NCBI GenBank assembly: GCA_016182605.1
Contig: JACPGE010000060.1
Coordinates: forward strand, 9,807 to 73,806
Direction: 5' to 3'
DNA: 64,000 nt
DNA from: Candidatus Hydrogenedentota bacterium
Lineage (GTDB): Bacteria > Hydrogenedentota > Hydrogenedentia > Hydrogenedentales > JAEUWI01
The position numbers and the translations under genes were made by a program. How positions within the stretch are numbered: position 1 is the first letter of the stretch; each line of letters starts with the position of its first letter. The notes under the pieces are model-generated. The model did not search any database and was not told the DNA's origin. It saw only the letters and a list, made by a program, of their open reading frames with translations. This document shows, piece after piece, positions 7,459-63,808 of this stretch.

Positions 7459-7544
7459 TGCCGCCCCGCTTAGAACGGCGGACCAGGAGAAGTCCAACAA
7501 GATCGGTTTTGAGCACCAAGGGCACTATTCTGAACGGCGCTAAC

Positions 7545-7700
7545 ATGTTGCAGTCTCACTCCAATCACGCCGCTCGGCGGGCAACGGGCTACCATTTTGG
7601 CACGCCCAAACAGGCCTTCGCTCGCCGGGCAGCCTGCCACCATTTAGACACGCCACCCAAGTAGGCCTTCGCTCGCCGAGCGTAGGCATTCCGCGTCGAA
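7545..7700. repeat. Partial inverted copy of the interspersed repeat unit (module carrying 'aggccttcgctcgccg' twice)
   Basis: ctcactccaatcacgccgctcggcg...cccaagtaggccttcgctcgccgagcgtaggcattcc matches the reverse complement of 8455..8535 and the left part of 54790..54850. Confidence 0.7.
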
Positions 7701-8143
7701 GTACCTCGTCCCGCACCCCTCTACACACGGCCACACTTCATCACAAAATCCAGATCAATCCGGCTTTCGTAGCTCCCAATTTCAATTGGGAGTTCGAATC
7801 CCAAACCTCTGCGCGCTTACGTCGACGCATTCACGCACACACCCATTGTCATCTCGAACGCAGTGAGAGATCTCCCAAGGGGACTGTACCCGCCGGAAGG
7901 CAATAGGCCTACCCGGCGGAAAGATCTTCCACCGGCGGGGACTGTACCCGGGCCCCAATCACGCACACCCCGCAACCCCAACCACCCTGCTATCCCGAAC
8001 CCTTCCCTGTCATCTCGAACGCAGTGAGAGATCTCCCCGGGGAGCGCCATGCGCCGCGACGTGGACCACAAAAAGCTGGGGCGGTCTTATTTTCCAGGAA
8101 TGTCCGGTCCCTTGGGGCTCAGACATTCCTTATAGTAACCACG

Positions 8144-8213
8144 TTGGTTATCCACAGCCGACAGCAAGGCCACCTCGGTTGGCCTTCGTCGGCTGTCGGG
8201 TGTGGATAACCAA
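8144..8213. repeat. Long imperfect hairpin (about 30-bp stem, 8-nt loop)
   Basis: ttggttatccacagccgacagcaaggcc acctcggt tggccttcgtcggctgtcgggtgtggataaccaa. The outer 13 bp are perfectly complementary. Confidence 0.6.
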
Positions 8214-8368
8214 CCGGCTGGGGATGCAGTATTTCTGGCGTAACCCAAACTCGGTTTGGGCGGCGACGGCTCCTTCCGCGCCCCGCGCATCCCTCCAGCC
8301 GCAAGGACCGGCGCCCGATCCCATTCCCGCGTGTTCGACACCCGCGTCTCCGCCCGTTGATTCTCCAA

Positions 8369-8760
8369 GGAAAATTCGGGGCAGTAACCATTTTTTGCAG
8401 GATTCTCGCCCGGTTGACGGGGTGTAAGCTGGTACCTTGACGAGGAATGCCTATGCTCGGCGAGCGAAGGCCTACTTGGGTGGTGTCTAACAGGTAGCAC
8501 GCTGCTCGCCGAGCGGCGTGATTGGAGTGAGACCGCAAGTGTTAGCCCGCATATTTCACCACTTCAAGGTTTCTTGGCAACGAGTTCGACTTGGAAGATG
8601 GTGAAAAATGCTCAGCGTGGCGATGGTGCTGGCGTTCACCGGGCAGGCTAAATCACGGGCTGTTTGTTATTCCCAAGCTTGAAGTTGGGACAACGATATG
8701 TATGAATGGGTGTTACGACTACATCGTTTGGAGCCCGTGATTTATCCGAGTACACGGTCC
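8369..8760. repeat. Composite copy of the interspersed repeat family (minus orientation relative to the 54790 copy). It carries module R1, the 'gtgaaatatgcggg' module, the 50-bp core and its hairpin partner
   Basis: 8369..8540 is about 85% identical to 9249..9425 (direct). 8546..8662 is the reverse complement of 54905..55082. 8741..8759 (gagcccgtgatttatccg) pairs with 8644..8662 (ggctaaatcacgggctg) to form a 12-bp stem around a ~75-nt loop. Confidence 0.75.
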
Positions 8761-8876
8761 ATGCACCGTATTTCGACACAGGTACAACGCCGGCCGGGCA
8801 GGTGTGGCACGGACGCGGCTGCCAGCGATCCTCCACACTCACCGCTCCCACCCGTTTCGAAACAACATCCCTCATT

Positions 8877-8925
8877 CCCATCCGTGTGCATCGGTGTTCA
8901 TTCGTGGTTTGATTCCCTCAAGAAC
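8877..8925. repeat. Short direct repeat (copy 1 of 2; copy 2 at 9138..9185)
   Basis: cccatccgtgtgcatcggtgt.cat.cgtggtttgattccc is shared by both loci. Copy 1 is followed by an inverted repeat gttcattcgtggt...accacgaatgaac. Confidence 0.6.
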
Positions 8926-9248
8926 CAGGCCATCAATCAGACCACGAATGAACGCCAATACACGCGAATAAGACACAAGAACACGCCGGACCCCATGCCC
9001 ATCCTTCCCATTCCTCTTTCAGTGTGCTCCCTGTGTTCCGTGGTCGGCGAAGCGCTATCCTTAGTCCCCGCCCCGCCCCCGCGTTTCGCAAAGTCCATCC
9101 CGTCCATCAGGTCCATGTAGCCAGTCCACACGCCCCTCCCCATCCGTGTGCATCGGTGTCCATCCGTGGTTGATTCCCCCCAGTACCAACGTTTCGCCCG
9201 CCCTTCAACTCCTTTGCGACTTTGCGGCTTTGCGTGAGACAACTTTCC

Positions 9249-9425
9249 GGGAGAAATTGTGGACAGTAACCATTTTTGCAGGATTCTCTCCTGTTTGACG
9301 GGGTGTAGACAGGCGCTTCGACGTGGAATGCCTGCGCTCGCCGAGAGCGAAGGTCTACATTGGTGGCGTGCTTCATGGCAGCGCGCTGTTCGCCGAGCGG
9401 CGTAACCGGGGCGAGGCGGGAAAAG
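9249..9425. repeat. Second direct copy of repeat module R1
   Basis: gggagaaattgtggacagtaaccatttttgcaggattctc...gacggggtgta...ggaatgcct.cgctcg.cgag.gcgaagg.ctac aligns to 8369..8540. Confidence 0.7.
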
Positions 9426-9573
9426 TAAGCGCCATTCGGAGCGGTCCCCGGCAAAATCGATTGCACCATTTCAACCTTCGCAGACTTTTTCCGCTCTGGC
9501 CTTTGATCGGTGGACCGGGAGAAGCTACAGTAGTGTTGGAATCCTAAAGGCATTGCCAGGAGGCCGACACCCC

Positions 9574-10212
9574 ATGTATCTCTTCGCCGGAACCGCCATT
9601 CTTGCTGCACTGAGCCTGCTGGTCATCGTCAGCCTGATCTGGCGCTGGGCCTCCACGCGCCAGGCCCTGCCGTGCCCCTCCCAGTTCTCCTGGATGCTGG
9701 AAAACCCCCTCATGAACCAGATGGCGGGCGCCACCCGGCTCTTCGACTTCCTCGATCTGCGGCCCGGCATGACGCTTCTCGATGTGGGCTGTGGTCCGGG
9801 CCGCATGACGGTGCCCGGCGCGCTCCGCGTTGGCACGGAAGGCCGCGTTCTCGCGCTCGACATGCAGGAAGCCATGATCCGGAAGGCCCAGAACCGCGCA
9901 CAGCAGGCTGGCCTCACCAACATCGAGTTCATTCTGAAAGGCATGGGTGAGGGGGCGCTCCCAGCGGCATGCTGTGATCGCGCCATCCTGGTTACCGTCC
10001 TCGGCGAAATCCCCGATCGGGCCGCCGCCCTCCGTGGCATCCACACCGCCCTCCGCCCCGGCGGCCGCCTGTGCATTGCGGAGATCCTTCTCGATCCCCA
10101 CTACCAGCCCCGCGCCCGCGTCGAAGCCCTCGCACGCGAGACGGGCTTCACGCTCGGTCCGTATCAGGGCGGCTGGATCTCCTACACACAGATTCTGGAG
10201 AAGCCGGAATAG
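9574..10212 (+). CDS. Class I SAM-dependent methyltransferase with an N-terminal TM anchor
   Basis: RBS CAGGAGG 8 nt before the ATG at 9574. TM helix LFAGTAILAALSLLVIVSLIW. Motif I LLDVGCGPGRMT and the post-I acidic residue (LALDMQEAM). Motif IV-like DRAILVTVL. Confidence 0.75.
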   Translation: MYLFAGTAILAALSLLVIVSLIWRWASTRQALPCPSQFSWMLENPLMNQMAGATRLFDFLDLRPGMTLLDVGCGPGRMTVPGALRVGTEGRVLALDMQEAMIRKAQNRAQQAGLTNIEFILKGMGEGALPAACCDRAILVTVLGEIPDRAAALRGIHTALRPGGRLCIAEILLDPHYQPRARVEALARETGFTLGPYQGGWISYTQILEKPE

Positions 10213-10258: not shown

Positions 10259-11512
10259 TCATGTGCCTTTATCACGAAGTAGACAGTTCTTGACCGAATA
10301 CCAGTCGGCTTGCTCAATGCCTTTGACGAAGGGAATCACTTTCTCGTCGCCAATGAGCCGTTCCCATTTCCTTCTTATGGCACCACGTGCAAGCTCTTCC
10401 ATACGTGAAGCATTGGGATCAACGACAGCCAGTCGATGAGATTCTGAAGAGCATAGCCAATCCAAGAGACGGGCGTTTATGACTTTGTCACCAAAACTGT
10501 ATCCGCATACAACTAGGTAGTCTGTCGTCAGCAGGTTCTGGTGAAACATGACTTGAAGTTCTGCGAAGATTCCATAGTTGTACTCCAGGAGCTTGTTGAA
10601 AGTTCCCATTAACATCAGTGGTCCTCTTACATGCCAGAGTTCGTGCCTTTCACCAAGTTCGTTCCTGGCGTGATAAGGATCGCGGTCCAATGATTTTCCA
10701 ACGCATTGGCTTTGCCATACGGGGCCTGGCGATGGGAACGAGTACCAGTCGACAGAGCCATGCAGTTTAAATATACGAACCTTTGCATTTGAGTGCGACA
10801 GGTCATTCCGGTTCCAGTGCAATACGTTTCCTCTGTGATCGCAGAAACCGTCCGAATACGGAACTCCGAAAGATCGAAAGAGTTCTTCAAGGATGGTGTC
10901 GTGATTCAAAGTGTAAATGTCGATCTTTGAGAGGGATCCATCGCGAGAGGCGGAGAGTAGGAACGACAATGCCCAAAGTCGGTTCGGAGTCTTCCACAAT
11001 TCGTTCTCCACGACATCGCGGATATAGGTGCATACCTCATTCAACAGTGGCGTGAGTTCCCAATTTTCATGCAGTTCACCAGGTTTATGCTGCAGAATTT
11101 TGAGAACAGCCGGCATCTTAAGCAGCTTTTCGTACAACGCCTGAACTGCGGGGTTCTCGTACTCGAAGTGATCGCTGTCTGAAAGCTGACGTGCACAAAA
11201 ATAGAGGTCTTCGTAATTCGTCTGATGCCGCCCAAAGGTCTTGTAGAACTCTGCTTCATTGCTCAGCGAGTGTCGGCCACAGTGAAAAAATCCGTCTACT
11301 TCGTCCTTTAGTATTTGGAGCAGCGCAGTGACTCGAGGAACATATACTTCCTGAGACTCAAAATCTTCGCGAACTCTATCATCAAATTCGTAGTTGCCGC
11401 AGGTGTGCCGTCGGTAGTTCACACCAGCCAGGACTGTGCTCGTCAGGCTCGCCGTTGAAGGCTTTCCAACGGGAATAGATGTTCCCGCGCCGCAGACGAT
11501 GCCAACTCTCAT
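10259..11512 (-). CDS. SIR2-like (sirtuin superfamily, SIR2_2-type) NAD-binding/NADase-like protein
   Basis: Nucleotide-binding loop VGIVCGAGTSIPVGKPS (compare sirtuin GAGIS.E.GIP). Asn motif IYTLNHDTILEE (compare TQNID). Catalytic-His motif KLHGSVDWY (compare sirtuin LHGS). Second Rossmann strand VVCGYSFGDKVIN. The gene GC (~48%) is well below its neighbours (~63%). Its start codon overlaps the stop of the upstream ATPase gene (ATGA). Confidence 0.75.
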   Translation of the reverse strand: MRVGIVCGAGTSIPVGKPSTASLTSTVLAGVNYRRHTCGNYEFDDRVREDFESQEVYVPRVTALLQILKDEVDGFFHCGRHSLSNEAEFYKTFGRHQTNYEDLYFCARQLSDSDHFEYENPAVQALYEKLLKMPAVLKILQHKPGELHENWELTPLLNEVCTYIRDVVENELWKTPNRLWALSFLLSASRDGSLSKIDIYTLNHDTILEELFRSFGVPYSDGFCDHRGNVLHWNRNDLSHSNAKVRIFKLHGSVDWYSFPSPGPVWQSQCVGKSLDRDPYHARNELGERHELWHVRGPLMLMGTFNKLLEYNYGIFAELQVMFHQNLLTTDYLVVCGYSFGDKVINARLLDWLCSSESHRLAVVDPNASRMEELARGAIRRKWERLIGDEKVIPFVKGIEQADWYSVKNCLLRDKGT

Positions 11513-12708
11513 GTGGTCGTTCCCAAAGTATCGTTTTTTCTGTTGGGTCGTACGCTAGAATCCATTGAGTAATTCAGGCCCGTCAATTCCCCACCCACGG
11601 GGACCGTGCTCACCTTGTCCCCCAGCGGATAGGCCTTGTCCCCCGGATAAACAACCCATAAATGCTCCAGTTCCAAATCCTCCAGCGCACTGCGCATCGA
11701 ACGCGTGATCCGCGGCGCGTCGGCGTACTTCACCTCCACGGCCCAGTTCTTGCCCCGATCCTGCCAGAAGAGATCAACCTCGGCGCCGGAGTGCGTGGCC
11801 CAGAAGTAGAGTTCTTCCTTCCGTTTGCCAAGCGCCCGCGTTACGGTCTCCAACGCAAAGCCTTCCCAGGACGCGCCGAGCTTGTTGTGGGTCGCGAGAT
11901 CTCCCGCTGTGCGCGCCGAGAGCAGGGTGTGAAAGAGCCCGGAATCGCGGAAGTAGATCTTGGGCCGTTTGACAAGGCGCTTCCCCACGTTCGCATGCCA
12001 CGGCTGTAACAGCCGGATCATAAAGGTCCCTTCGAGGACGTCCAGGTAGCGCCGGACCGTTGCGTCGGACACGCCGAAGGAACGGGCGAACTCGGAGTAG
12101 TTCATCAACTGGCCATGATAGTGACAGAGCATGGTCCAGAAGCGCCGCAACGCGGCCGCGGGAATATCAATGCCGAGTTGCGGGATGTCACGCTCCAGGA
12201 AGGTGGCCACATACTGCTCGCGCCACAAGTGGCTCGCCGCATCGCTGTCCGCTGTGTATGCGCGCGGCAGCCCGCCCCGCAACCAGAGGGACCGCCAATG
12301 TTCCGTGCCCACGTCTTCGAGCCGGAATCCCCCCAATTCATGGTAGGCAATGCGCCCCGCCAACGACTCTGCCGATTGCCGGATAAGATCCCGCGATGCA
12401 CTGCCCAAGATCAGGTAGCGCTGTCCAGGGCGGGTGTCGACGAGGTGGCGCAACAGGGGGAAGAGGTTGGGAGCCCGCTGTATTTCGTCGATGACGATCA
12501 GACCCGAAAGGGGCTCCAGAGCCAGTTGCGCCTGCTCCATCATGACCGCATCCCGAGGATTTTCCAGATCGAAGAAGTGCGCCGCCGGAAAAGCCCGTGC
12601 AAGACACGTTTTCCCGGCCTGACGCGGCCCCAAGAGAGCAGTCACGGGAAAGTGTTCCAATAAGGCACGAATGGCCTCTGTATCGGCATGCCGGGCTATC
12701 ATAGCCAC
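11509..12708 (-). CDS. P-loop ATPase fused to a PD-(D/E)xK nuclease-like C-terminal domain (AAA_14/DUF4143-like by motif recall)
   Basis: Walker A LLGPRQAGKTCLA and Walker B LIVIDEIQRAPNLF. The C-terminal region GAEVDLFWQDRGKNWAVEVKYADAP has a D...E.K arrangement typical of the restriction-endonuclease fold. 399 aa. Translationally coupled to the SIR2-like gene. Confidence 0.7.
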   Translation of the reverse strand: MAMIARHADTEAIRALLEHFPVTALLGPRQAGKTCLARAFPAAHFFDLENPRDAVMMEQAQLALEPLSGLIVIDEIQRAPNLFPLLRHLVDTRPGQRYLILGSASRDLIRQSAESLAGRIAYHELGGFRLEDVGTEHWRSLWLRGGLPRAYTADSDAASHLWREQYVATFLERDIPQLGIDIPAAALRRFWTMLCHYHGQLMNYSEFARSFGVSDATVRRYLDVLEGTFMIRLLQPWHANVGKRLVKRPKIYFRDSGLFHTLLSARTAGDLATHNKLGASWEGFALETVTRALGKRKEELYFWATHSGAEVDLFWQDRGKNWAVEVKYADAPRITRSMRSALEDLELEHLWVVYPGDKAYPLGDKVSTVPVGGELTGLNYSMDSSVRPNRKNDTLGTTT

Positions 12709-33591: not shown

Positions 33592-34779
33592 TTGGCTTGG
33601 GATCTAAGAAATCAAAAAGCCAACTCTTGGATAGAGGTGAAAGCCGCCGTGCCGCAGACTAAGATTGTATCCGGCGCCGTTCACGGCCTTCGAAGATTCG
33701 GAAGCTTTTGGAAGGCATGTGCCGCACTCTTGCTGGGATCCGTGCTGGCCTTGCTCCTTGTCCTCGCGATCGACTTCGCATGCGGATTCATCTATCAGCG
33801 CAAACCGCCCGTTTTCGCTGAAAAGTCGGTTTCCGGAAGGCCGGTGAGTCTGCCAGACGGCAATCTGGGCTTCCACCTGGTTCCCAACGCGTCTGAACTC
33901 GTGAATCGGACTGCCGGCGCTCAAACCATATACAGCGTTACCTACACGACGGACGCCTGTGGCCGGCGCGTCGTGCCAGCGGCGGCGCATGGCGGCCAAA
34001 GCCAATTCCTGATCTTTTTCGGCTGCTCGTTTACATTTGGGGCTGGGCTGGGAGACAACGATACGCTCCCCAATCAAGTTGCGGCGCTTGCACCGGACTA
34101 CCATGTCTATAACTATGCGTGCGGCGGCTACGGCCCCGCTCAGATGCTCGCCATACTGGAATCTGGCGTCCTCCCCAAAGAGATTCAGGAACCGGCTGGA
34201 ATCGCAGTATATGTACTGCGCCCGGGTCACGTAGCGCGGGTGGTCGGTTCCATGCGGACGACGGCATCGTGGGCACGGCATTTCCCCTATTACGCCATCG
34301 AGGACGATGGCGCCCTGTCGCGGCGGGGAAATTTCGATGAGGACCGCCGGTTTACGAATTGGTATTACAACCTGGCGGGTAAAAGCGGCATCTTGAATTT
34401 GCTCTCCCTCGACTTGCCGCTTTGGTATCGCGAATCCCATTACGCACTCACAGCGCGAGTTCTCATTGAGTCGCGGGACCTCTTCTTGAAGTCATTCAAG
34501 GACGGAAAATTTTATGTCGTTTTTTATCCCGCATGGGACGACTACCGGCTCGTGTATACGCGCATTCTTCCGTATCTCGAAAAAGCAGGCGTCACGGTCT
34601 TGAACTATAACCAGTTGCTCGAGCCAGAACACGACGCCTATTTTCTGCATCCCGTGTATGACCGGCACCCCTCCGCAGTTGCCCATAAACAAGTCGCCGC
34701 GCAACTCGCTCAAGACCTTGACGTGATTCCCCCGCAACAAAGCGAATCGAACGGGTCCGTGACGCCAGACAGCCCGTGA
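33592..34779 (+). CDS. Membrane-anchored SGNH/GDSL-like hydrolase or acyltransferase-accessory-like protein
   Basis: N-terminal TM helix ACAALLLGSVLALLLVLAI. Motif QFLIFFGCSFTFGAG resembles the GDS(L) block. 395 aa. GC lower than the neighbouring genes. Confidence 0.45.
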   Translation: MAWDLRNQKANSWIEVKAAVPQTKIVSGAVHGLRRFGSFWKACAALLLGSVLALLLVLAIDFACGFIYQRKPPVFAEKSVSGRPVSLPDGNLGFHLVPNASELVNRTAGAQTIYSVTYTTDACGRRVVPAAAHGGQSQFLIFFGCSFTFGAGLGDNDTLPNQVAALAPDYHVYNYACGGYGPAQMLAILESGVLPKEIQEPAGIAVYVLRPGHVARVVGSMRTTASWARHFPYYAIEDDGALSRRGNFDEDRRFTNWYYNLAGKSGILNLLSLDLPLWYRESHYALTARVLIESRDLFLKSFKDGKFYVVFYPAWDDYRLVYTRILPYLEKAGVTVLNYNQLLEPEHDAYFLHPVYDRHPSAVAHKQVAAQLAQDLDVIPPQQSESNGSVTPDSP

Positions 34780-34822
34780 TTTAACCTGCCCGCCGAACGC
34801 CAGCACCATCCTCACGCCGAGT
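34770..34822. repeat. Partial copy of the 50-bp repeat core (family 'cagcccgtgatttaacctgcccggtgaacgccagcaccatcgtcacgctga')
   Basis: cagcccgtgatttaacctgcccgccgaacgccagcaccatcctcacgccgag. Same orientation and ~90% identity to 55030..55082. Confidence 0.7.
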
Positions 34823-34857: not shown

Positions 34858-34960
34858 CCGGATCATCTCCGCCTGACGCACTTCCTGGCGCCCGGAATCG
34901 GCCCAGAAGGGTATTCGTGCGGATAGATAAAGCGCCGGATACTGGGATGGAAGCGCCGCC
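34858..34960 (-). pseudogene. Decayed duplicate of the 3' terminus of pncB
   Basis: About 85% nucleotide identity to 37305..37408 (the 3' end of pncB). The minus-strand translation ...YPALYLSARIPFWADSGRQEVRQAEMIRG parallels the PncB C-terminus ...YPHEYPSGLDSGLHEARQAEMIRMKRGK but lacks the stop codon. Confidence 0.7.
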
Positions 34961-37286: not shown

Positions 37287-38756
37287 TCATTTCCCCCGCT
37301 TCATCCGGATCATCTCCGCCTGACGCGCCTCGTGGAGCCCGGAATCGAGCCCGGAAGGATATTCATGGGGATAGATAAAACGCCGGATGCTCGGATGAAA
37401 CCGGCGCAAGTCATCGAAGGCGTGCTGGCGGATCTCGTGGATGCTCGGGGGCTCGTACACAAGGTGGCCCTGCTCGAAGATGGGCAAGAGTAAGTCAAAG
37501 CTCTTCGCATCCGGGGCTATGGTCTTTGTGCGGAAAGGGTTCATCGGATCCACCAGCGTCGTCGGCTCCGCTATCCCGTTACGCTCATCATAGATGCAGT
37601 CGCCCAGATATGTATCGCCGCGCCGGAACCGCCGGACGTTCAAAATGCCAGGAATGGAGTTCTTCGCCGCCTGCTCCGAAAGTTTGACCTTGTTTACCCA
37701 CTCCCCGGCGTCGTCCCGCACCGCCGCCAATTTGTAGACCGCGCCCAGCGCCGGCTGATCATACGCCGTGATCAATTTCGTCCCCACGCCCCACACCGCG
37801 ATGGTCGCGCCCTGATCCTTGAGCGAGCTAATAATGTGTTCGTCCAAGTCGTTCGAAGCAATGATACGCGTGTCCTGAAACCCCGCTTCATCCAGCAACT
37901 TGCGCGCTTCGATCGAGAGATAGGCCAAGTCGCCCGAATCCAGCCGGATACCGGCAAACTGATACCCCTTCTCGCGCAGCCGCTGCCCCGCCGCGATCGC
38001 GTTGCGCACCCCTCCCAGCGTGTCGTACGTGTCCACCAGAAACACGCAGTTGTTCGGCATGACCTCCGCATACGTCTCAAACGCCTGCAACTCGTCCGGA
38101 AAGAGCATCACCCAGGAATGGGCGTGCGTGCCGCGAACAGGAATACCGTAAATACGGCCCGCCAATACATTCGAGGTCGCAAAGCACCCGCCAATATACG
38201 CCGCACGGCTCGCCGCCAGGCCGCCATCGATTCCCTGTGCCCGGCGCAGCCCGAATTCCAGCACGGGATCCCCCTGGGCCGCATGGCAGACCCGCGCCGC
38301 CTTCGTGGCCACCAGGCTCTGGAAACCCACGATCGTGAGCAAGGCCGTCTCCAAAAGTTGCCCCTGAAGTATCGGACCCTGGATCCGCAACAATGGCTCC
38401 TGTGGAAAGACCGCGGCGCCTTCCGGAACCCCCTTCACACTGCACGAAAAGCGCAGGGCAAGCAAATACTCCAGAAAATCCTGCGAAAAAAGGGGCGCGC
38501 CATCGTTGCCGTTCAGCGTCCCCAGATAGGTCACATCGTCTTCGTCGAAGTGAAAATCCTGCAAATACTCGATCACCGTGCCCAGGCCGCACGCAAGCGT
38601 ATAGCCCGAGTTGAACGGCGGATGCCGGAACGCCAAATTGAAGATCGCCTCGCGCTCCGCCAGACCGGACTTCCAATAGGAATACGCCATCGTAATCTGG
38701 TAAAGATCGGTCAGCAGGGCCAATGAAGGCCGGTAGATCTCTCGCAATGCACTCAT
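37287..38756 (-). CDS. pncB: Nicotinate phosphoribosyltransferase
   Basis: MSALREIYRPSLALLTDLYQITMAYSYWKSG...GTHAHSWVM...IRLDSGDLAYLS. Collinear with the NAPRTase family. 489 aa. Confidence 0.9.
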   Translation of the reverse strand: MSALREIYRPSLALLTDLYQITMAYSYWKSGLAEREAIFNLAFRHPPFNSGYTLACGLGTVIEYLQDFHFDEDDVTYLGTLNGNDGAPLFSQDFLEYLLALRFSCSVKGVPEGAAVFPQEPLLRIQGPILQGQLLETALLTIVGFQSLVATKAARVCHAAQGDPVLEFGLRRAQGIDGGLAASRAAYIGGCFATSNVLAGRIYGIPVRGTHAHSWVMLFPDELQAFETYAEVMPNNCVFLVDTYDTLGGVRNAIAAGQRLREKGYQFAGIRLDSGDLAYLSIEARKLLDEAGFQDTRIIASNDLDEHIISSLKDQGATIAVWGVGTKLITAYDQPALGAVYKLAAVRDDAGEWVNKVKLSEQAAKNSIPGILNVRRFRRGDTYLGDCIYDERNGIAEPTTLVDPMNPFRTKTIAPDAKSFDLLLPIFEQGHLVYEPPSIHEIRQHAFDDLRRFHPSIRRFIYPHEYPSGLDSGLHEARQAEMIRMKRGK

Positions 38757-52325: not shown

Positions 52326-52388
52326 CGCGCCAGATGGATAGGGACACAGTCACCACCTGCGCCTGTCATGGCAGTCTGTGCGCATCTA

Positions 52389-52528
52389 TCCCGGATAAAT
52401 CACGGGCTCCACGTATTCGTGTCATAACCCCTTTTCTCGTCTGTCATTGCCACAACATGCACGGCGGCATCGCCAGACAGCCCGCGCTTTAGCCTGCCCG
52501 GTGAACGCCAGCGCCATCGTCACGCTGA
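52389..52528. repeat. Interspersed repeat copy (hairpin-partner module + loop + 50-bp core). Left member of a near-identical inverted pair with 63490..63603
   Basis: 52389..52460 differs from the reverse complement of 63531..63603 at a single position (tattcgtg vs tatttgtg). A further ~40 bp is ~70% identical. 52478..52528 is a core copy (cagcccgcgctttagcctgcccggtgaacgccagcgccatcgtcacgctga). Confidence 0.8.
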
Positions 52529-53006
52529 TGGACTGGATCGACGATCTGCCAGTGGAGATCGAGCTTGTCGCGGGGCTGCCGGGCGAAGCCGGCGCGGAAC
52601 CGGTGCAGCCGCGGGAACAGCGCCATAACGGCAGAAACTTGCCGCGCCTTCGCCCTGCTTGATAAAATCTCCCACGCAGTTGAAGTTCTTCCCCACGCAT
52701 GCCTCCGGCATGGATGCGCCCGATGGTTCACGCACACACCAGCGATGACTTGCGGCGCCCGCGTGAGCGGCGCCCGCACGGGGCCGCGTTTTTGCTGCAT
52801 TCCAACCCAACCTTCACCCCGTTTGACTGCCTCGATCCGTCTGCCGTATCTACCCCTGTCCCGCGCGGCGTCAAATGTCTGCCGTCAACGAGCGAAATCC
52901 TCGATGCGCCTGCCAGGATTCAACTCCACCCCCCATTCCGTGGGATTCCACAGCGCTGCTACAACCGCCGGGCAGTCGTTACTGCCGGGAAAGGCTCGAT
53001 ACAAAT

Positions 53007-54671
53007 ATGATCTGGATTCAGGAACTCTTCAAAGGAGAATCCATCGCCGGTACCGTCGCGATACTTGCCCTGGTCGCTGTGGTGGGACTCGTCTTCGGCA
53101 GCCTCAAACTCCGCGGCGTCGGTCTCGGTATTGCCGGCGTGCTCTTCTCCGGCCTCCTCTTCGGCCACCTCAAGTTCTCCGTCAATCCGGAGATGATGGA
53201 GTTCGCGCGCGAATTCGGACTCATCCTCTTCGTCTACTCCATCGGCATGCAAGTCGGGCCCGGCATCATCGACTCCCTCCGCCGCGAAGGGCTTCCCATG
53301 AATCTCCTCGCCGCAGGTGTCGTGCTCCTCGGAGCCGCAACCGCCCTCGTACTCGGCCGCTATTTCAATGTGGAAATGCCCGTCATCGTCGGCCTCCTTA
53401 GCGGCGCCACCACCAACACACCCAGCCTCGGCGCTGCCCAGGCCGCCATCTTCGATTCCGGTGGCGCCGCGGAACTGCTCGCCCTCCCCGGACTGGGCTA
53501 CGCCGTCGCCTATCCCTTCGGCATTGTCGGCATCATCCTCTCCATGCTCTTCTTGCGATTCTTCTTCCGCGTCAAAGTGGCCGGCGAGGCCGCCGCGCTC
53601 AAGCAGGCCCGCGCAGGGCAGGTCGAGTCGCTGGAACGCTCCAATCTGGCCGTCGAAAACCCCAATCTCGAAGGCATGCCACTCGGGGAAATATCGCTCT
53701 TCGAAGATTCCGGCGTCATCATCTCACGCGTCCAGCACGAAGGCATTCAATCCGTGGCCACCCCAAAGACCGTCCTCCACCTGGGAGACATCGTGCTCGC
53801 CGTGGGCCCGCCCAAAAAACTTCACGCACTCAAGCTCCTCGTGGGACAAAAGTCCGCGATCGATCTCTCCAGCGCACCCAGTGCCGTCGAATCGAAAAAA
53901 CTCATTGTCACAAAAAATAACGTCGTGGGAAAAACCCTCCGCGAACTCGCCCTGCCCATCCGTTTCAACGTGCGCGTTACCCGCCTCCTCCGTGCAGGCG
54001 TCGAAATGCCCATCGTGCCCTCCATGAAACTGCACTACGGTGACACCATCGTCACCGTCGGCGATAAGGAACACCTCGATCAGGTCGCAAGCATCGTCGG
54101 CAACTCCAAGCGCGCCCTGAACCATCCGGAAATGCTGCCCGTCTTCATCGGCATCGTGCTCGGCGTCATCGTGGGCAGCATTCCCTTTCACGTGCCCGGC
54201 GTGCCCGCACCCGTAAAGCTCGGCCTCGCCGGGGGCCCCTTGCTCGTCGCCATCGTCCTCAGCCGCCTCGGCAACGTGGGCAATGTCGTCTGGTACCTGC
54301 CCGACAGCGCCAGCCTCATCATCCGGGAACTCGGGATCGTGCTCTTCCTCTCCTGCGTCGGACTCAAGGCCGGCAACCACCTTATGGAAACCCTCGTAAA
54401 CGGCGACGGCCTGCTCTGGGTGTTCATCGGCGCCATGATCACCATGGTGCCCCTGATCGTCATCGGTGCGATCGCGCGCGTCGCCATGAAGATGAACTTC
54501 CTCTCCGTGTGCGGCCTCCTCGCCGGCAGCATGACCGATCCCCCCGCACTCGCCTTCGCCGGCAACTTCGCAGGCTCCGAAGGCCCCACCGTCGCCTACG
54601 CCACCGTCTACCCCCTCACCATGATCCTCCGCGTGATCATCGCCCAAGTCTTGATTCTCATGTTCCTGTGA
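53007..54671 (+). CDS. YidE/YbjL-type putative transporter (AAE, aspartate:alanine exchanger family) with two internal TrkA_C/RCK_C domains
   Basis: Duplicated 5-TM halves (GVGLGIAGVLFSGLLFGHL... and ...LGLAGGPLLVAIVLSRLG) separated by two RCK_C-like segments (MPLGEISLFEDSGVIISRVQHEG ; VVGKTLRELALPIRFNVRVTRLLRAG). Confidence 0.75.
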   Translation: MIWIQELFKGESIAGTVAILALVAVVGLVFGSLKLRGVGLGIAGVLFSGLLFGHLKFSVNPEMMEFAREFGLILFVYSIGMQVGPGIIDSLRREGLPMNLLAAGVVLLGAATALVLGRYFNVEMPVIVGLLSGATTNTPSLGAAQAAIFDSGGAAELLALPGLGYAVAYPFGIVGIILSMLFLRFFFRVKVAGEAAALKQARAGQVESLERSNLAVENPNLEGMPLGEISLFEDSGVIISRVQHEGIQSVATPKTVLHLGDIVLAVGPPKKLHALKLLVGQKSAIDLSSAPSAVESKKLIVTKNNVVGKTLRELALPIRFNVRVTRLLRAGVEMPIVPSMKLHYGDTIVTVGDKEHLDQVASIVGNSKRALNHPEMLPVFIGIVLGVIVGSIPFHVPGVPAPVKLGLAGGPLLVAIVLSRLGNVGNVVWYLPDSASLIIRELGIVLFLSCVGLKAGNHLMETLVNGDGLLWVFIGAMITMVPLIVIGAIARVAMKMNFLSVCGLLAGSMTDPPALAFAGNFAGSEGPTVAYATVYPLTMILRVIIAQVLILMFL

Positions 54672-54789: not shown

Positions 54790-55085
54790 CCGTCGGCCTT
54801 GCCGGAAGTAGGCCTTCGCTCGCCGGGCGCAGGTATGGGCGCTTTCCGTGCGGAGCCCAAGTGCGGGCGTGGAGTATGCCCTCGGGCAGGCAGTGGAGCG
54901 CGTTGCCCACAAGTTTTGAAGTGGTGAAATATGCGGGTTAGCCCGGATAAATCACGGGCTCCAGCCGACGGAGCCATAACTCTCACTCACACTTGCTGTT
55001 GCCCAAACCTTGGATCCGGAAACAACAGACAGCCCGTGATTTAACCTGCCCGGTGAACGCCAGCACCATCGTCACGCTGAGCAGT
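54790..55085. repeat. Most complete copy of the interspersed repeat family (about 295 bp; plus orientation)
   Basis: Modules in order: aggccttcgctcgccgggc ; ttgaagtggtgaaatatgcgggttagc ; cccggataaatcacgggctcc ; ~70-nt loop ; cagcccgtgatttaacctgcccggtgaacgccagcaccatcgtcacgctgagca. The stem aaatcacgggct/agcccgtgattt forms a 12-bp hairpin. Confidence 0.8.
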
Positions 55086-55172: not shown

Positions 55173-55201
55173 TTGACAGGGCATTCGCAGGGTGGCACAA
55201 T
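55173..55201 (+). promoter_or_regulatory. Sigma-70-like promoter candidate for the TetR-icmF cluster
   Basis: TTGACA-17 nt-CACAAT (or CAATAT at 19 nt). Followed by a palindromic gagcgctc core that could serve as the TetR operator. Confidence 0.3.
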
Positions 55202-55242
55202 ATTGAGCGAGCGCTCAGTCGGAACACGCTAAAGGTCTGCCC

Positions 55243-63300: not shown

Positions 63301-63489
63301 GTCAATCCCTCTCTGGAGCGAAAATGTGGTAGATTTAATCAGTTGACACTGCGGAAACTATTCTCACCCGTACAGATGGGAAAAGTCAACGGTGCGAACC
63401 CGCCTATTTCGCCATTTTGAGCGGTTCTGAGGAGCAGATCTTCCCGGAAAGCGGTGAAATATTCGGGGCGCGAGTATGGCTTGGCCCCT

Positions 63490-63603
63490 GCCGGAGCGAG
63501 CCAATCGCGGGCTGTCCGGCAATTCCACTGTGCATGTTGTGGCAATGACAGACGAGAAAAGGGGTTATGACACAAATACGTGGAGCCCGTGATTTATCCG
63601 GGC
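63490..63603. repeat. Interspersed repeat copy. Right (inverted) member of the near-identical pair with 52389..52500
   Basis: The reverse complement of 63531..63603 equals 52389..52460 with 1 mismatch. Confidence 0.8.
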
Positions 63604-63808
63604 CAGTCTGAACCGTATGAGCCCCGATTTGATTCGCGGGGCATGGGCAACCTATAGTTACTGCGAATGTGTCAACAAAAAACGTTGACCGATTCAGGCA
63701 ATATTCTTATACTGCTACAATGGACGCTGGGGAGCGTAGTTCGCCGAGGCCACTTGGGGCTGTCGATGCCGGGCTTTCACGGCGGGAGTAGAGGCCGGGA
63801 AGAGGATC

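What the first reader, a model, noticed from the sequence alone, without database searches (positions are those of the whole stretch)
54790..55085. High-copy structured intergenic repeat family (at least 7 loci in 64 kb) built around a conserved 12-bp-stem hairpin
The module set appears at about 7545, 8369-8760, 9249-9425, 34770, 52389-52528, 54790-55085 and 63490-63603, in both orientations and always intergenic. Its modules are 'aggccttcgctcgccg', 'gtggtgaaatatgcgggttagc', 'ccggataaatcacgggctcc', a ~70-nt loop, and 'cagcccgtgatttaacctgcccggtgaacgccagcaccatcgtcacgctga'. The two 'aaatcacgggct'/'agcccgtgattt' segments are mutual reverse complements, so each full copy can fold as a long stem-loop. 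That density is unusual.

Every core copy also contains a short potential reading frame (MVLAFTGQ[A/V]K[S/A]RAV...) on one strand. The substitutions between copies include multi-nucleotide changes and do not preserve the stem either. Selection at the peptide level or the RNA level is therefore unresolved.
Basis: seen in the sequence. Interest (0 to 1): 0.5.

Follow-up and report, generated by a model that had tools for sequence, protein, structure and literature searches.

The report
Intergenic hairpin repeats beside REP clusters
This is a real but ordinary kind of bacterial "junk" repeat: a roughly 145-base non-coding element present four and a half times in this stretch of an uncultivated Hydrogenedentes genome, sitting next to classic GTAG-tagged REP palindromes, with no sign that it encodes a peptide.

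Summary
The repeats are real and far beyond chance, but the finding merges at least three separate repeat families.

- **Hairpin core (~145 nt).** There are four full copies (8608-8752 -, 52387-52531 +, 54939-55084 +, 63462-63605 -) and one half copy (34762-34822 +).
  - Each has a near-invariant 21-nt left arm, a poorly conserved 62-nt spacer (44-58% identity between subtypes), an inverted right arm and a ~40-nt tail.
- **Module 'AGGCCTTCGCTCGCCG'.** This is a GTAG-tagged REP palindrome. It is clustered at 7.5-9.4 kb, with one more copy at 54806.
- **Module 'GGTGAAATATGCGGG'.** This is a third unit, and its position relative to the core differs between loci.

The stem is perfect in two of four copies. 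All its variation lies on one arm, with no compensatory changes.

The micro-ORF is not conserved. It has different stops, is frameshifted in one copy, and four of five variable codons are nonsynonymous.

Nothing matches in Rfam, and the ends carry no terminal inverted repeats or target-site duplication. No transposase lies in the window. No copy occurs in 77 kb from five related genomes, nor in any scanned collection.

Best reading: a lineage-specific, REPIN-like non-autonomous intergenic repeat. Genome-wide copy number and the mobilising enzyme could not be tested.

The parts
54939..55084 (+). Hairpin-core copy B, the copy in the finding (full element)
   Evidence: nhmmer E=2e-42. 81% identical over 141 nt to copy A.
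54943..54963 (+). Left arm of B, CCGGATAAATCACGGGCTCCA. It is identical in copies B, C and D, and differs at 1 nt in A.
   Evidence: Segment identities are 95-100%. Invariant columns shown.
54964..55025 (+). Spacer of B (62 nt), poorly conserved
   Evidence: 44-58% identity between copies, except C/D at 92%.
55026..55043 (+). Right arm of B, CAGACAGCCCGTGATTTA. It contains the reverse complement of the left-arm core.
   Evidence: 72-94% identity between copies.
55044..55083 (+). Tail of B (ACCTGCCCGGTGAACGCCAGCACCATCGTCACGCTGAGCA). The opposite strand carries the non-conserved micro-ORF 54983-55069.
   Evidence: The tail is 94% identical among copies A, B and C, and similar in E. It diverges in D. 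ORF analysis.
54892..54940 (+). M2 unit (…GAAGTGGTGAAATATGCGGGTTA) abutting the left arm of B
   Evidence: 82% identical to 8591-8543. The 15-mer occurs 4 times, at <=2 mismatches.
54806..54836 (+). M1: degenerate GTAG-tagged REP palindrome (AAGTAGGCCTTCGCTCGCCGGGCGCAGGTAT)
   Evidence: 6 hits against 0.04 expected.
8608..8752 (-). Hairpin-core copy A (full; 13-bp perfect stem)
   Evidence: nhmmer E=8.5e-43. Fold z-score about -3 on both strands.
8543..8612 (.). Inverted M2/M2' pair next to the tail of copy A (GCATATTTCACCAC … GGTGAAAAATGC). A similar pair lies at 63399-63467 next to copy D.
8447..8520. REP doublet: two GTAG-tagged palindromes in inverted orientation with the tags facing inward (GTAG at 8475 on the - strand and 8494 on the + strand)
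   Evidence: stems of 9-10 out of 11 pairs, loop of 1 nt.
7539..7705 (+). REP cluster G (three REP units, GTAG at 7661). No hairpin core.
9254..9440 (-). REP cluster F, 79% identical to 8372-8519. No hairpin core.
   Evidence: (GTAG at 9358 on the - strand).
52387..52531 (+). Hairpin-core copy C (full; two mismatches in the stem)
   Evidence: nhmmer E=8e-45. Stem counts.
63462..63605 (-). Hairpin-core copy D. It is 93% identical to C over arms and spacer, but its tail is divergent and the micro-ORF is frameshifted.
   Evidence: (repeat I1).
34762..34822 (+). Half copy E: right arm plus tail only (a singlet)
   Evidence: nhmmer E=2e-13, model positions 85-145.

Best explanation
The locus holds one member of a lineage-specific, non-coding, ~145-nt intergenic repeat of a Candidatus Hydrogenedentes genome. 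Its architecture resembles a REPIN or a TIR dimer.

**Architecture (shown)**
- Two short inverted end sequences, a near-invariant 21-nt left arm and its partial inverse, enclose a fast-evolving 62-nt spacer.
- A conserved ~40-nt tail follows on one side.
- At two loci it sits inside clusters of a second, independent family: GTAG-tagged REP palindromes.

**Mechanism (inferred)**
- The copies are, or were, spread in trans by an enzyme encoded elsewhere in the genome. The most likely candidate is an HUH or tyrosine transposase of the RAYT/TIRYT type acting on single-stranded DNA.
- That enzyme would recognise the conserved ends. This would explain why the ends stay identical while the interior decays and recombines between subtypes.
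- The hairpin is a consequence of the inverted ends. It may form in ssDNA or in read-through transcripts, but it is not itself the selected feature.
- The short ORF is fortuitous.

**Shown versus inferred**
- Shown: the anatomy, the unequal conservation, the lack of coding signal and the lineage restriction.
- Inferred: mobility and the identity of the enzyme.
For: **Real, dispersed copies**
- 4 full copies and 1 half copy lie at 8.6, 34.8, 52.4, 55.0 and 63.5 kb. They are in both orientations and flanked by unrelated housekeeping genes.

**Very uneven conservation**
- Left arm 95-100%. Tail 94% among A, B and C. Spacer 44-58%.
- 20 consecutive columns within the left arm are invariant in four copies whose interiors differ by about half.

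**Subtype shuffling**
- C and D share a spacer (92%) but have different tails.
- C shares its tail with A and B but not its spacer.

**A singlet remnant**
- Copy E resembles the REP singlets described for REPINs (PMC3116915, read).

**Co-location with bona fide GTAG-tagged palindromes**
- The palindromes carry a GTAG tag, an 11-bp stem with 1-2 mismatches and a loop of 1-5 nt. One is an inverted doublet.
- This matches the definition in PMC3733652. That paper also describes non-GTAG TIR repeat families, organised as dimers, that flank tyrosine-transposase genes.

**Lineage restriction**
- 0 copies in 77 kb from five relatives at 75-82% protein identity, against 5 copies in 64 kb here.
- Only chance hits in the GTDB representative genomes, JGI metagenomes and IMG/VR. 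No match in the plasmid and phage collections.

**No RNA family and no coding signal**
- No Rfam family matches.
- There is no coding signal.
Against: - No direct evidence of movement. There are no target-site duplications, no empty-site comparison (synteny with relatives is not conserved) and no transposase in the window.
- The core lacks the GTAG tag.
- The inverted arms are not at the element's termini on the tail side.
- The spacer does not form a continuous hairpin, and there are no compensatory changes. It therefore fails strict REPIN and MITE definitions.
- Only five copies could be examined, and the genome-wide number is unknown.
- A near-invariant 21-mer with a variable body is also what sibling small RNAs with a common seed look like.
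Confidence: 0.55

Rival explanations
1. The copies are a family of sibling small RNAs or cis-acting RNA elements, such as 3'-UTR stabilisers or terminator-like structures. The near-invariant 21-nt arm would be a seed or protein-binding site, and the arms would form a closing stem.
For: - The pattern of a near-invariant 21-mer with a variable body fits.
- The 13-15-bp closing stem forms in the minimum-free-energy (MFE) folds of copies A and B.
- One right-arm change gives G·U on one strand.
- 4 of 5 copies are co-oriented with an adjacent gene, judged from the gene map.
- A terminator-like hairpin followed by a U-rich run lies at 54975-54957 on the - strand.
Against: - No shared promoter lies at a fixed distance on either strand (and the flanks read).
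- Fold z-scores are unremarkable for B, C and D, ranging from -1.2 to 0.0.
- There are 0 compensatory pairs, and 2-3 uncompensated mismatches in two of four copies.
- The inner small hairpins fall in different alignment columns in different copies.
- No Rfam match.
- The orientation bias is not significant (4 of 5 copies, P about 0.19).
Confidence: 0.17
2. The conserved arm and tail are DNA binding sites for a host protein such as a nucleoid-associated protein, regulator or recombinase. The repeats would have been recruited as regulatory or architectural sites.
For: - Sequence is conserved, rather than pairing.
- All copies lie in intergenic space, one of them between divergent genes (copy D).
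Against: - The flanking genes share no functional theme: permease, TetR, T2SSE ATPase, DUF2961 and methyltransferase.
- Position relative to gene starts varies.
- No candidate binding protein is known.
Confidence: 0.1
3. The repeat encodes a small peptide (MVLAFTGQ[A/V]K[S/A]RAV…), for example a type I toxin or a leader peptide.
For: An ATG-initiated frame exists in 4 of 5 copies.
Against: - The peptides are 19-31 aa long with unrelated C-termini and different stops.
- Copy E runs on for 105 codons, antisense to the neighbouring ORF.
- Copy D is frameshifted.
- 4 of 5 variable codons are nonsynonymous, two of them through multi-base changes.
- There is no Shine-Dalgarno-like sequence upstream.
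- There is no downstream gene in the right orientation for a leader. At copy B the frame points into the 3' end of a convergent gene.
- The frame would be antisense to the likely read-through transcription at B, C and E.
Confidence: 0.03
4. The repeats are an assembly artefact or a local segmental duplication of a metagenome-assembled genome, not a dispersed family.
For: - The REP-cluster units G, A-adjacent and F all lie within 2 kb (7.5-9.4 kb). They could be local duplications.
- The source is a MAG.
Against: - The core copies are 2.5 to 55 kb apart, in unique gene contexts, and have diverged by 7-50%.
- An independent Logan assembly of run SRR12113422 reproduces the unique flanks up to the repeats. 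Contigs end at 7678, inside M1, and begin at 55054, inside the tail of B.
Confidence: 0.05

Closest known systems
REPINs (REP doublets forming hairpins) mobilised by RAYT transposases (Bertels & Rainey 2011, PMC3116915)
   Same: - Two highly conserved inverted end sequences are separated by a less conserved spacer of similar size. [quoted passage not shown] Here the start-to-start distance is about 83 bp.
- The elements are extragenic and lineage-specific.
- Singlets occur as remnants.
- Some copies occur in higher-order clusters.
   Different: - The core arms carry no GTAG tag.
- The arms are not themselves clear REP palindromes.
- The spacer does not extend the hairpin.
- No compensatory changes are seen.
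- An extra 40-nt conserved tail lies on one side.
- The RAYT could not be looked for.
GTAG-tagged REP palindromes (Di Nocera et al. 2013, PMC3733652)
   Same: - Module M1 and its partner at 8494 fit the definition: a terminal GTAG, an 11-bp stem with 1-2 mismatches, a very short loop and an inverted dimer about 20 nt apart.
- They cluster with flanking DNA reiterated.
   Different: - This applies only to the 'AGGCCTTCGCTCGCCG' module, not to the hairpin core.
- Hydrogenedentes is not among the phyla listed in that survey, as far as the sections I read show.
- The copy number in the genome is unknown.
TIR repeat families associated with TIRYT tyrosine transposases (same paper, section read)
   Same: These are non-GTAG inverted-repeat units forming moderately abundant families, organised as dimers or clusters. 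Some coexist with REPs.
   Different: Membership is defined by flanking a TIRYT gene. None is visible in the window, and there is no sequence relation such as the GGGGWSAS motif.
ERIC / RIME / BIME-type intergenic mosaic repeats of Proteobacteria (own knowledge; reviewed in PMC3184786 and PMC2229807, which I listed but did not read in detail)
   Same: - They are 100-150-nt imperfect palindromes in intergenic, probably transcribed DNA.
- They show mosaic combination of different repeat modules in variable order.
- They have no recognised transposase, terminal inverted repeats or target-site duplication.
   Different: - No sequence similarity is expected or was tested.
- The phylum is different.
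- Here only the ends pair, not the whole element.
Classical MITEs
   Same: Small, non-coding and multi-copy, with inverted repeats.
   Different: - The inverted repeats are not terminal on the tail side.
- There is no target-site duplication.
- No parent insertion sequence was found.

Membership tests
GTAG-tagged REP (for module M1 only) | Unpaired terminal GTAG (or a GYAG/GTRG variant) at one end | tested here: met
   GTAG occurs at 7661(+), 8494(+), 8475(-), 9358(-) and 54808(+). A degenerate ACAG occurs at 7608 (sequences).
GTAG-tagged REP (for module M1 only) | Palindromic stem of 6-13 bp with a short loop | tested here: met
   Four units (7661, 8494, 8475 and 9358) have 8-10 paired positions in 10-11-bp stems, with loops of 1-5 nt. 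The fifth, at 54808, pairs at 8 of 11 by eye and did not pass the scan.
GTAG-tagged REP (for module M1 only) | Many copies in extragenic space, often as inverted dimers 20-100 bp apart | tested here: inconclusive
   There are 6 hits in the window against 0.04 expected, and an inward-facing dimer at 8447-8520.
GTAG-tagged REP (for module M1 only) | A RAYT gene (REPtron) in the genome | not testable with these tools
   None of about 55 window genes is a transposase. The rest of the genome is not in any searchable collection.
REPIN (for the hairpin core) | Two highly conserved inverted ends separated by a less conserved spacer | tested here: met
   Left arm 95-100%, right arm 72-94%, spacer 44-58%.
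REPIN (for the hairpin core) | Each end overlaps a REP, that is a short palindrome with a GTAG head | tested here: not met
   The four bases preceding the left arm are TTAG, GTAC, CTAT and CTGG in the four copies. The left arm has only a 4-6-bp local palindrome, and the right arm has none.
REPIN (for the hairpin core) | The whole unit forms a long hairpin, with compensatory changes across copies | tested here: not met
   Only 13-15 bp pair. There are 0 of 15 pairs with changes on both sides, and all variation is on the right arm. Fold z-scores run from -3 for copy A to about 0 for copy C.
MITE | Terminal inverted repeats at both element ends | tested here: not met
   The left boundary is at the left arm, but conservation extends about 40 nt beyond the right arm. 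The ends CCCGGATAAAT… and …CACGCTGAG are not inverted copies of each other.
MITE | Target-site duplication flanking each copy | tested here: not met
   Flanks of A, C and D show no direct repeat. B has only a loose 10-of-13 similarity (GTGAAATATGCGG / GTCAAAAATGCGC) that belongs to the M2-like motif.
MITE | A parent insertion sequence with the same ends | not testable with these tools
   No transposase in the window. No hits in the plasmid, phage, viral, GTDB or JGI collections.
Any curated RNA family (Rfam 15) | Covariance-model score at or above the gathering threshold | tested here: not met
   0 hits in the whole window at gathering thresholds. Only spurious sub-threshold miRNA or sRNA hits appear in E-value mode.
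Small protein gene | Conserved frame, conserved stop and an excess of synonymous change | tested here: not met
   Peptide lengths are 19-31 and 105 aa. Copy D is frameshifted. 4 of 5 variable codons are nonsynonymous.

The most novel reading that the evidence does not exclude
The hairpin core could be a previously undescribed class of element in the candidate phylum Hydrogenedentes. There are two versions of this reading.
- It could be a family of sibling regulatory RNAs sharing a near-invariant 21-nt seed.
- It could be a non-autonomous element with asymmetric ends (no GTAG, no terminal inverted repeats, no target-site duplication) that is moved by an enzyme or guide mechanism different from known RAYT, IS200 or MITE systems. 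In that case the arms would also serve as recombination points that shuffle spacers and tails.
Probability: 0.12. Interest if true: 0.55.

Novelty: new member of a known kind. Interest (0 to 1): 0.25.

Why it matters
Practically, it shows that this uncultivated lineage carries REP-type and REPIN-like repeat populations. These break short-read assemblies and generate spurious small ORFs, so annotators should mask them.

Biologically, GTAG REPs and a second, untagged inverted-end family in Hydrogenedentes would extend the known range of REP/RAYT-like systems. They would also offer a case where conserved ends, a free-running spacer and subtype shuffling can be studied.

This adds to a known phenomenon. 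It is not a new one.

Tried and rejected
- **GTDB representative genomes, scanned for the 18-mer GGATAAATCACGGGCTCC.** There were 5 hits, all in unrelated phyla. The one I read, L002, lies in coding sequence. The number is what chance predicts, so the source species is not in that collection.
- **Two JGI metagenome scans.** The arm + gap + arm pattern gave 0 hits. The tail pattern gave 1 hit, which lies inside an ABC-2-permease-like coding sequence and lacks the arm. I treat it as chance.
- **IMG/VR scan.** One chance hit, in a coding sequence.
- **Plasmid and phage BLASTN in distant mode.** Nothing.
- **A chimeric six-frame translation of the copies used as a protein query, to fish out miscalled ORFs over other copies.** No hit. 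In hindsight a 939-aa query penalises short local matches too heavily, so this search was wasted.
- **Fetching more of the source genome.** Window proteins retrieve only short Logan contigs of run SRR12113422. The NCBI protein P0001 is not indexed. The 5.9 kb gained beyond the window start has no copy.
- **Empty-site comparison.** Five relatives at 75-82% identity for the permease were fetched. Gene order differs, so no orthologous intergenic region could be compared.
- **Promoter idea for the 'GGTGAAATAT' motif.** No sigma-70-like match was found by the scan, and the spacing is inconsistent.
- **tRNA-fragment idea for 7765-7810.** ARAGORN finds no tRNA. The stretch is better described as another GTAG-tagged palindrome, although a T-arm-like TGGGAGTTCGAATCCCA follows it.
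- **CGTC-tagged REP idea for the tail.** The CGTC is not conserved (CGCC in copy A, CCTC in copy E) and no adjacent palindrome exists.
- **Literature.** No paper mentions the SRA run. None links Hydrogenedentes with the term 'intergenic repeat'.

Full report
**Source and setting**

The window comes from a metagenome-assembled genome labelled Candidatus Hydrogenedentes bacterium. The permease encoded at 53007-54671 is 100% identical to an NCBI protein of that name on a 139-kb contig. The next best relatives are only 82% identical.

The window is ordinary chromosome, about 61% G+C. It carries flagellar genes, mutL, miaA, an IcmF-like mutase, a chemoreceptor and similar genes. None of about 55 ORFs examined is a transposase or integrase.

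Yes. The exact 12-mer AAATCACGGGCT or its complement occurs seven times, against about 0.01 expected.

An nhmmer profile built from the four full copies gives the census:

| Copy | Coordinates | Strand | Content | E-value |
|---|---|---|---|---|
| A | 8608-8752 | - | full | 1e-39 to 1e-45 |
| C | 52387-52531 | + | full | 1e-39 to 1e-45 |
| B | 54939-55084 | + | full | 1e-39 to 1e-45 |
| D | 63462-63605 | - | full | 1e-39 to 1e-45 |
| E | 34762-34822 | + | half: right arm plus tail only | 2e-13 |

Nothing else in the window matches, and nothing matches in 5.9 kb of additional sequence upstream of it. The loci at about 7545 and 9249-9425 contain no hairpin core. They share only the 'AGGCCTTCGCTCGCCG' module.

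**Anatomy of the core**

In a common, ungapped register the element has four parts:

- **Left arm.** 21 nt, CCGGATAAATCACGGGCTCCA, identical in B, C and D with one difference in A.
- **Spacer.** 62 nt, only 44-58% identical between copies, except the C/D pair at 92%.
- **Right arm.** 18 nt, CAGACAGCCCGTGATTTA, 72-94% identical.
- **Tail.** About 40 nt, ACCTGCCCGGTGAACGCCAGCACCATCGTCACGCTGAG. It is 94% identical among A, B and C, similar in E, and only weakly alignable in D (z = 3.3).

C and D therefore share a spacer type but not a tail type. C shares its tail with A and B but not its spacer. Parts have been exchanged between subtypes, with the arms as the likely junctions.

The left boundary is sharp at (C)CCGG. 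The right boundary is at …CACGCTGAG. The two termini are not inverted copies of each other, and the flanks show no target-site duplication.

**The stem**

The arms pair over 13 bp, plus two further pairs. The pairing is perfect in A and B.

In C and D the right arm has changed and the left arm has not. This leaves 2-3 mismatches, one of which is a G·U on one strand.

Counting on the four-copy alignment gives 15 pairs with 93% of cells paired. No pair has changes on both sides, and shuffles equal the observed values on every measure.

Thermodynamic folding is unremarkable. Z-scores are about -3 for A but between -1.2 and 0 for B, C and D on either strand.

Small inner hairpins can be drawn in every copy, but they fall in different alignment columns. 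I do not count them as covariation.

What is conserved is the sequence of one arm and the tail. Base pairing is not what is conserved.

**The micro-ORF**

The frame gives peptides of 19 aa in A (24 aa from the upstream ATG), 28 aa in B and 31 aa in C, with unrelated C-termini.

- In E it runs on for 105 codons, antisense to the neighbouring ORF.
- D has a 1-nt deletion that destroys the frame.
- Among the 14 shared codons, five vary. Four of these are nonsynonymous, two through multi-base changes.
- There is no ribosome-binding site.
- At B the frame points into the 3' end of a convergent gene.

Coding is not supported.

**The other modules are different families**

'AAGTAGGCCTTCGCTCGCCGAGCGTAGGC' is a GTAG tag followed by an 11-bp stem with one or two mismatches and a minimal loop. 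A second such palindrome (GTAGCACGCTGCTCGCCGAGCGGCGTG, 8494) faces it about 20 nt away with the tags inward. Further units lie at 7608, 7661, 9358 and 54808, and a different GTAG palindrome lies at 7769.

This matches the published definition of GTAG-tagged REPs and their dimers (PMC3733652). It also matches the REP-doublet concept (PMC3116915).

The M2 unit (…GAAGTGGTGAAATATGCGGG…) forms an inverted pair next to the tail in A and D. In B it abuts the left arm.

Module order therefore differs between the two composite loci. It is M1-M2-core in B and core-M2-M1 in A. C, D and E have the core without REPs.

The 'module set' is a BIME-like mosaic, not one element.

**Distribution**

No Rfam family matches.

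| Collection | Query | Result |
|---|---|---|
| GTDB representative genomes | left-arm 18-mer | only chance hits; the one I read lies in coding sequence of an unrelated phylum |
| IMG/VR | left-arm 18-mer | one chance hit, in coding sequence |
| JGI metagenomes | arm + gap + arm pattern | 0 hits |
| JGI metagenomes | tail pattern | one chance hit in a coding sequence |
| Plasmid and phage collections | BLASTN, distant mode | nothing |
| Five relatives (75-82% permease identity, 77 kb) | profile, BLASTN, GTAG-palindrome scan | no copy of any module and no comparable GTAG palindromes |

At the density seen here, about six copies would be expected in those 77 kb. The families are therefore specific to, or strongly expanded in, this lineage.

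An independent Logan assembly of run SRR12113422 reproduces the unique flanks. Its contigs end at 7678, inside a REP, and begin at 55054, inside the tail of B. This argues against a MAG artefact and hints at further copies elsewhere. Other contig breaks occur in unique sequence, so the hint is weak.

**Interpretation**

The following combination is the signature of REP/REPIN-type and related non-autonomous repeats whose ends are needed in cis:

- dispersed intergenic copies in both orientations;
- conserved ends with a free-running interior;
- subtype shuffling;
- a singlet remnant;
- association with genuine REP clusters;
- lineage restriction;
- absence of coding or Rfam signal.

The published survey also describes non-GTAG 'TIR' repeat families, organised as dimers, that flank tyrosine-transposase genes. 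That is the closest described analogue for the core.

I therefore favour a REPIN-like element spread in trans by an HUH/tyrosine transposase encoded elsewhere (confidence about 0.55).

It is not a member of the REPIN family as defined. It has no GTAG tag, no REP palindrome in each arm and no extended hairpin. It is not a classical MITE either, having no terminal inverted repeats and no target-site duplication.

The main rival is a family of sibling small RNAs or cis-acting RNA elements with a common 21-nt seed (about 0.17). The data neither support nor exclude it.

**Limits**

- Only five copies could be studied.
- The rest of the genome, any transposase, transcription and site polymorphism were out of reach.

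**Verdict**

This is a genuine repeat family of a known general kind in a poorly studied phylum. The conserved-hairpin and peptide ideas are not borne out. Interest is low to moderate.

Noticed in passing
window 7459-9574: A 2.1-kb gene-free stretch between a pirin gene and a methyltransferase gene, packed with unrelated repeats: REP clusters, hairpin-core copy A and several other families. It looks like a repeat sink or the scar of an integrated element.
   Followed up: partly
window 7769-7806: A GTAG-tagged perfect 9-bp palindrome (GTAGCTCCCAATTTCAATTGGGAG) is immediately followed by a tRNA T-arm-like TGGGAGTTCGAATCCCA. ARAGORN finds no tRNA. It could be a second REP type or a relic tRNA 3' end (att site).
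   Followed up: partly
window 7847-7881 and 8008-8042: A 30-nt exact direct repeat, TGTCATCTCGAACGCAGTGAGAGATCTCCC, occurs 161 nt apart. An 18-nt inverted pair lies between the copies (7879-7896 / 7932-7949). Its nature is unknown.
   Followed up: no
window 8143-8214: A strong isolated hairpin: 23-bp arms, 96% complementary, 26 nt apart (GTTGGTTATCCACAGCCGACAGC…). It is unrelated to the repeat families studied.
   Followed up: no
window 8877-8969 and 9139-9188: Another repeat, CCCATCCGTGTGCATCGGTGTTCATTCGTGG…, has a direct copy 262 nt away and an inverted partner 20 nt away. It gave spurious sub-threshold Rfam miRNA hits.
   Followed up: no
window 10259-12708: A low-GC island (0.53-0.55 against about 0.61) encoding a SIR2-like protein and an AAA_14/DUF4143 ATPase, directly beside the repeat-rich stretch. 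It may be an acquired defence-type island.
   Followed up: no
window 34858-34959 versus 37305-37407: A ~100-nt stretch upstream of the DUF2961 gene is an 85% copy of the 3' end of the nicotinate phosphoribosyltransferase gene on the other side of DUF2961. This suggests the 2.4-kb DUF2961 gene was inserted with duplication of its target.
   Followed up: no
window 34762-34779: Half copy E supplies the last codons and the TGA stop of ORF 33592-34779. That ORF has no Pfam match and a lower GC3 than its neighbours. Either the repeat truncated a gene or the ORF is not real.
   Followed up: partly
window 55173-55218: A good sigma-70-like promoter (TTGACA, 17-nt spacer, CACAAT, preceded by TG) followed by a perfect palindrome, TGAGCGAGCGCTCA, just upstream of the TetR gene. 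This is probably its autoregulatory operator.
   Followed up: no
L007 14236-14593 and L008 1940-2254: Related Hydrogenedentes contigs carry their own tandem repeats in intergenic DNA: about 130-nt units at 97-99% identity in L007, and about 75-130-nt units in L008. These are unrelated in sequence to the families here.
   Followed up: no
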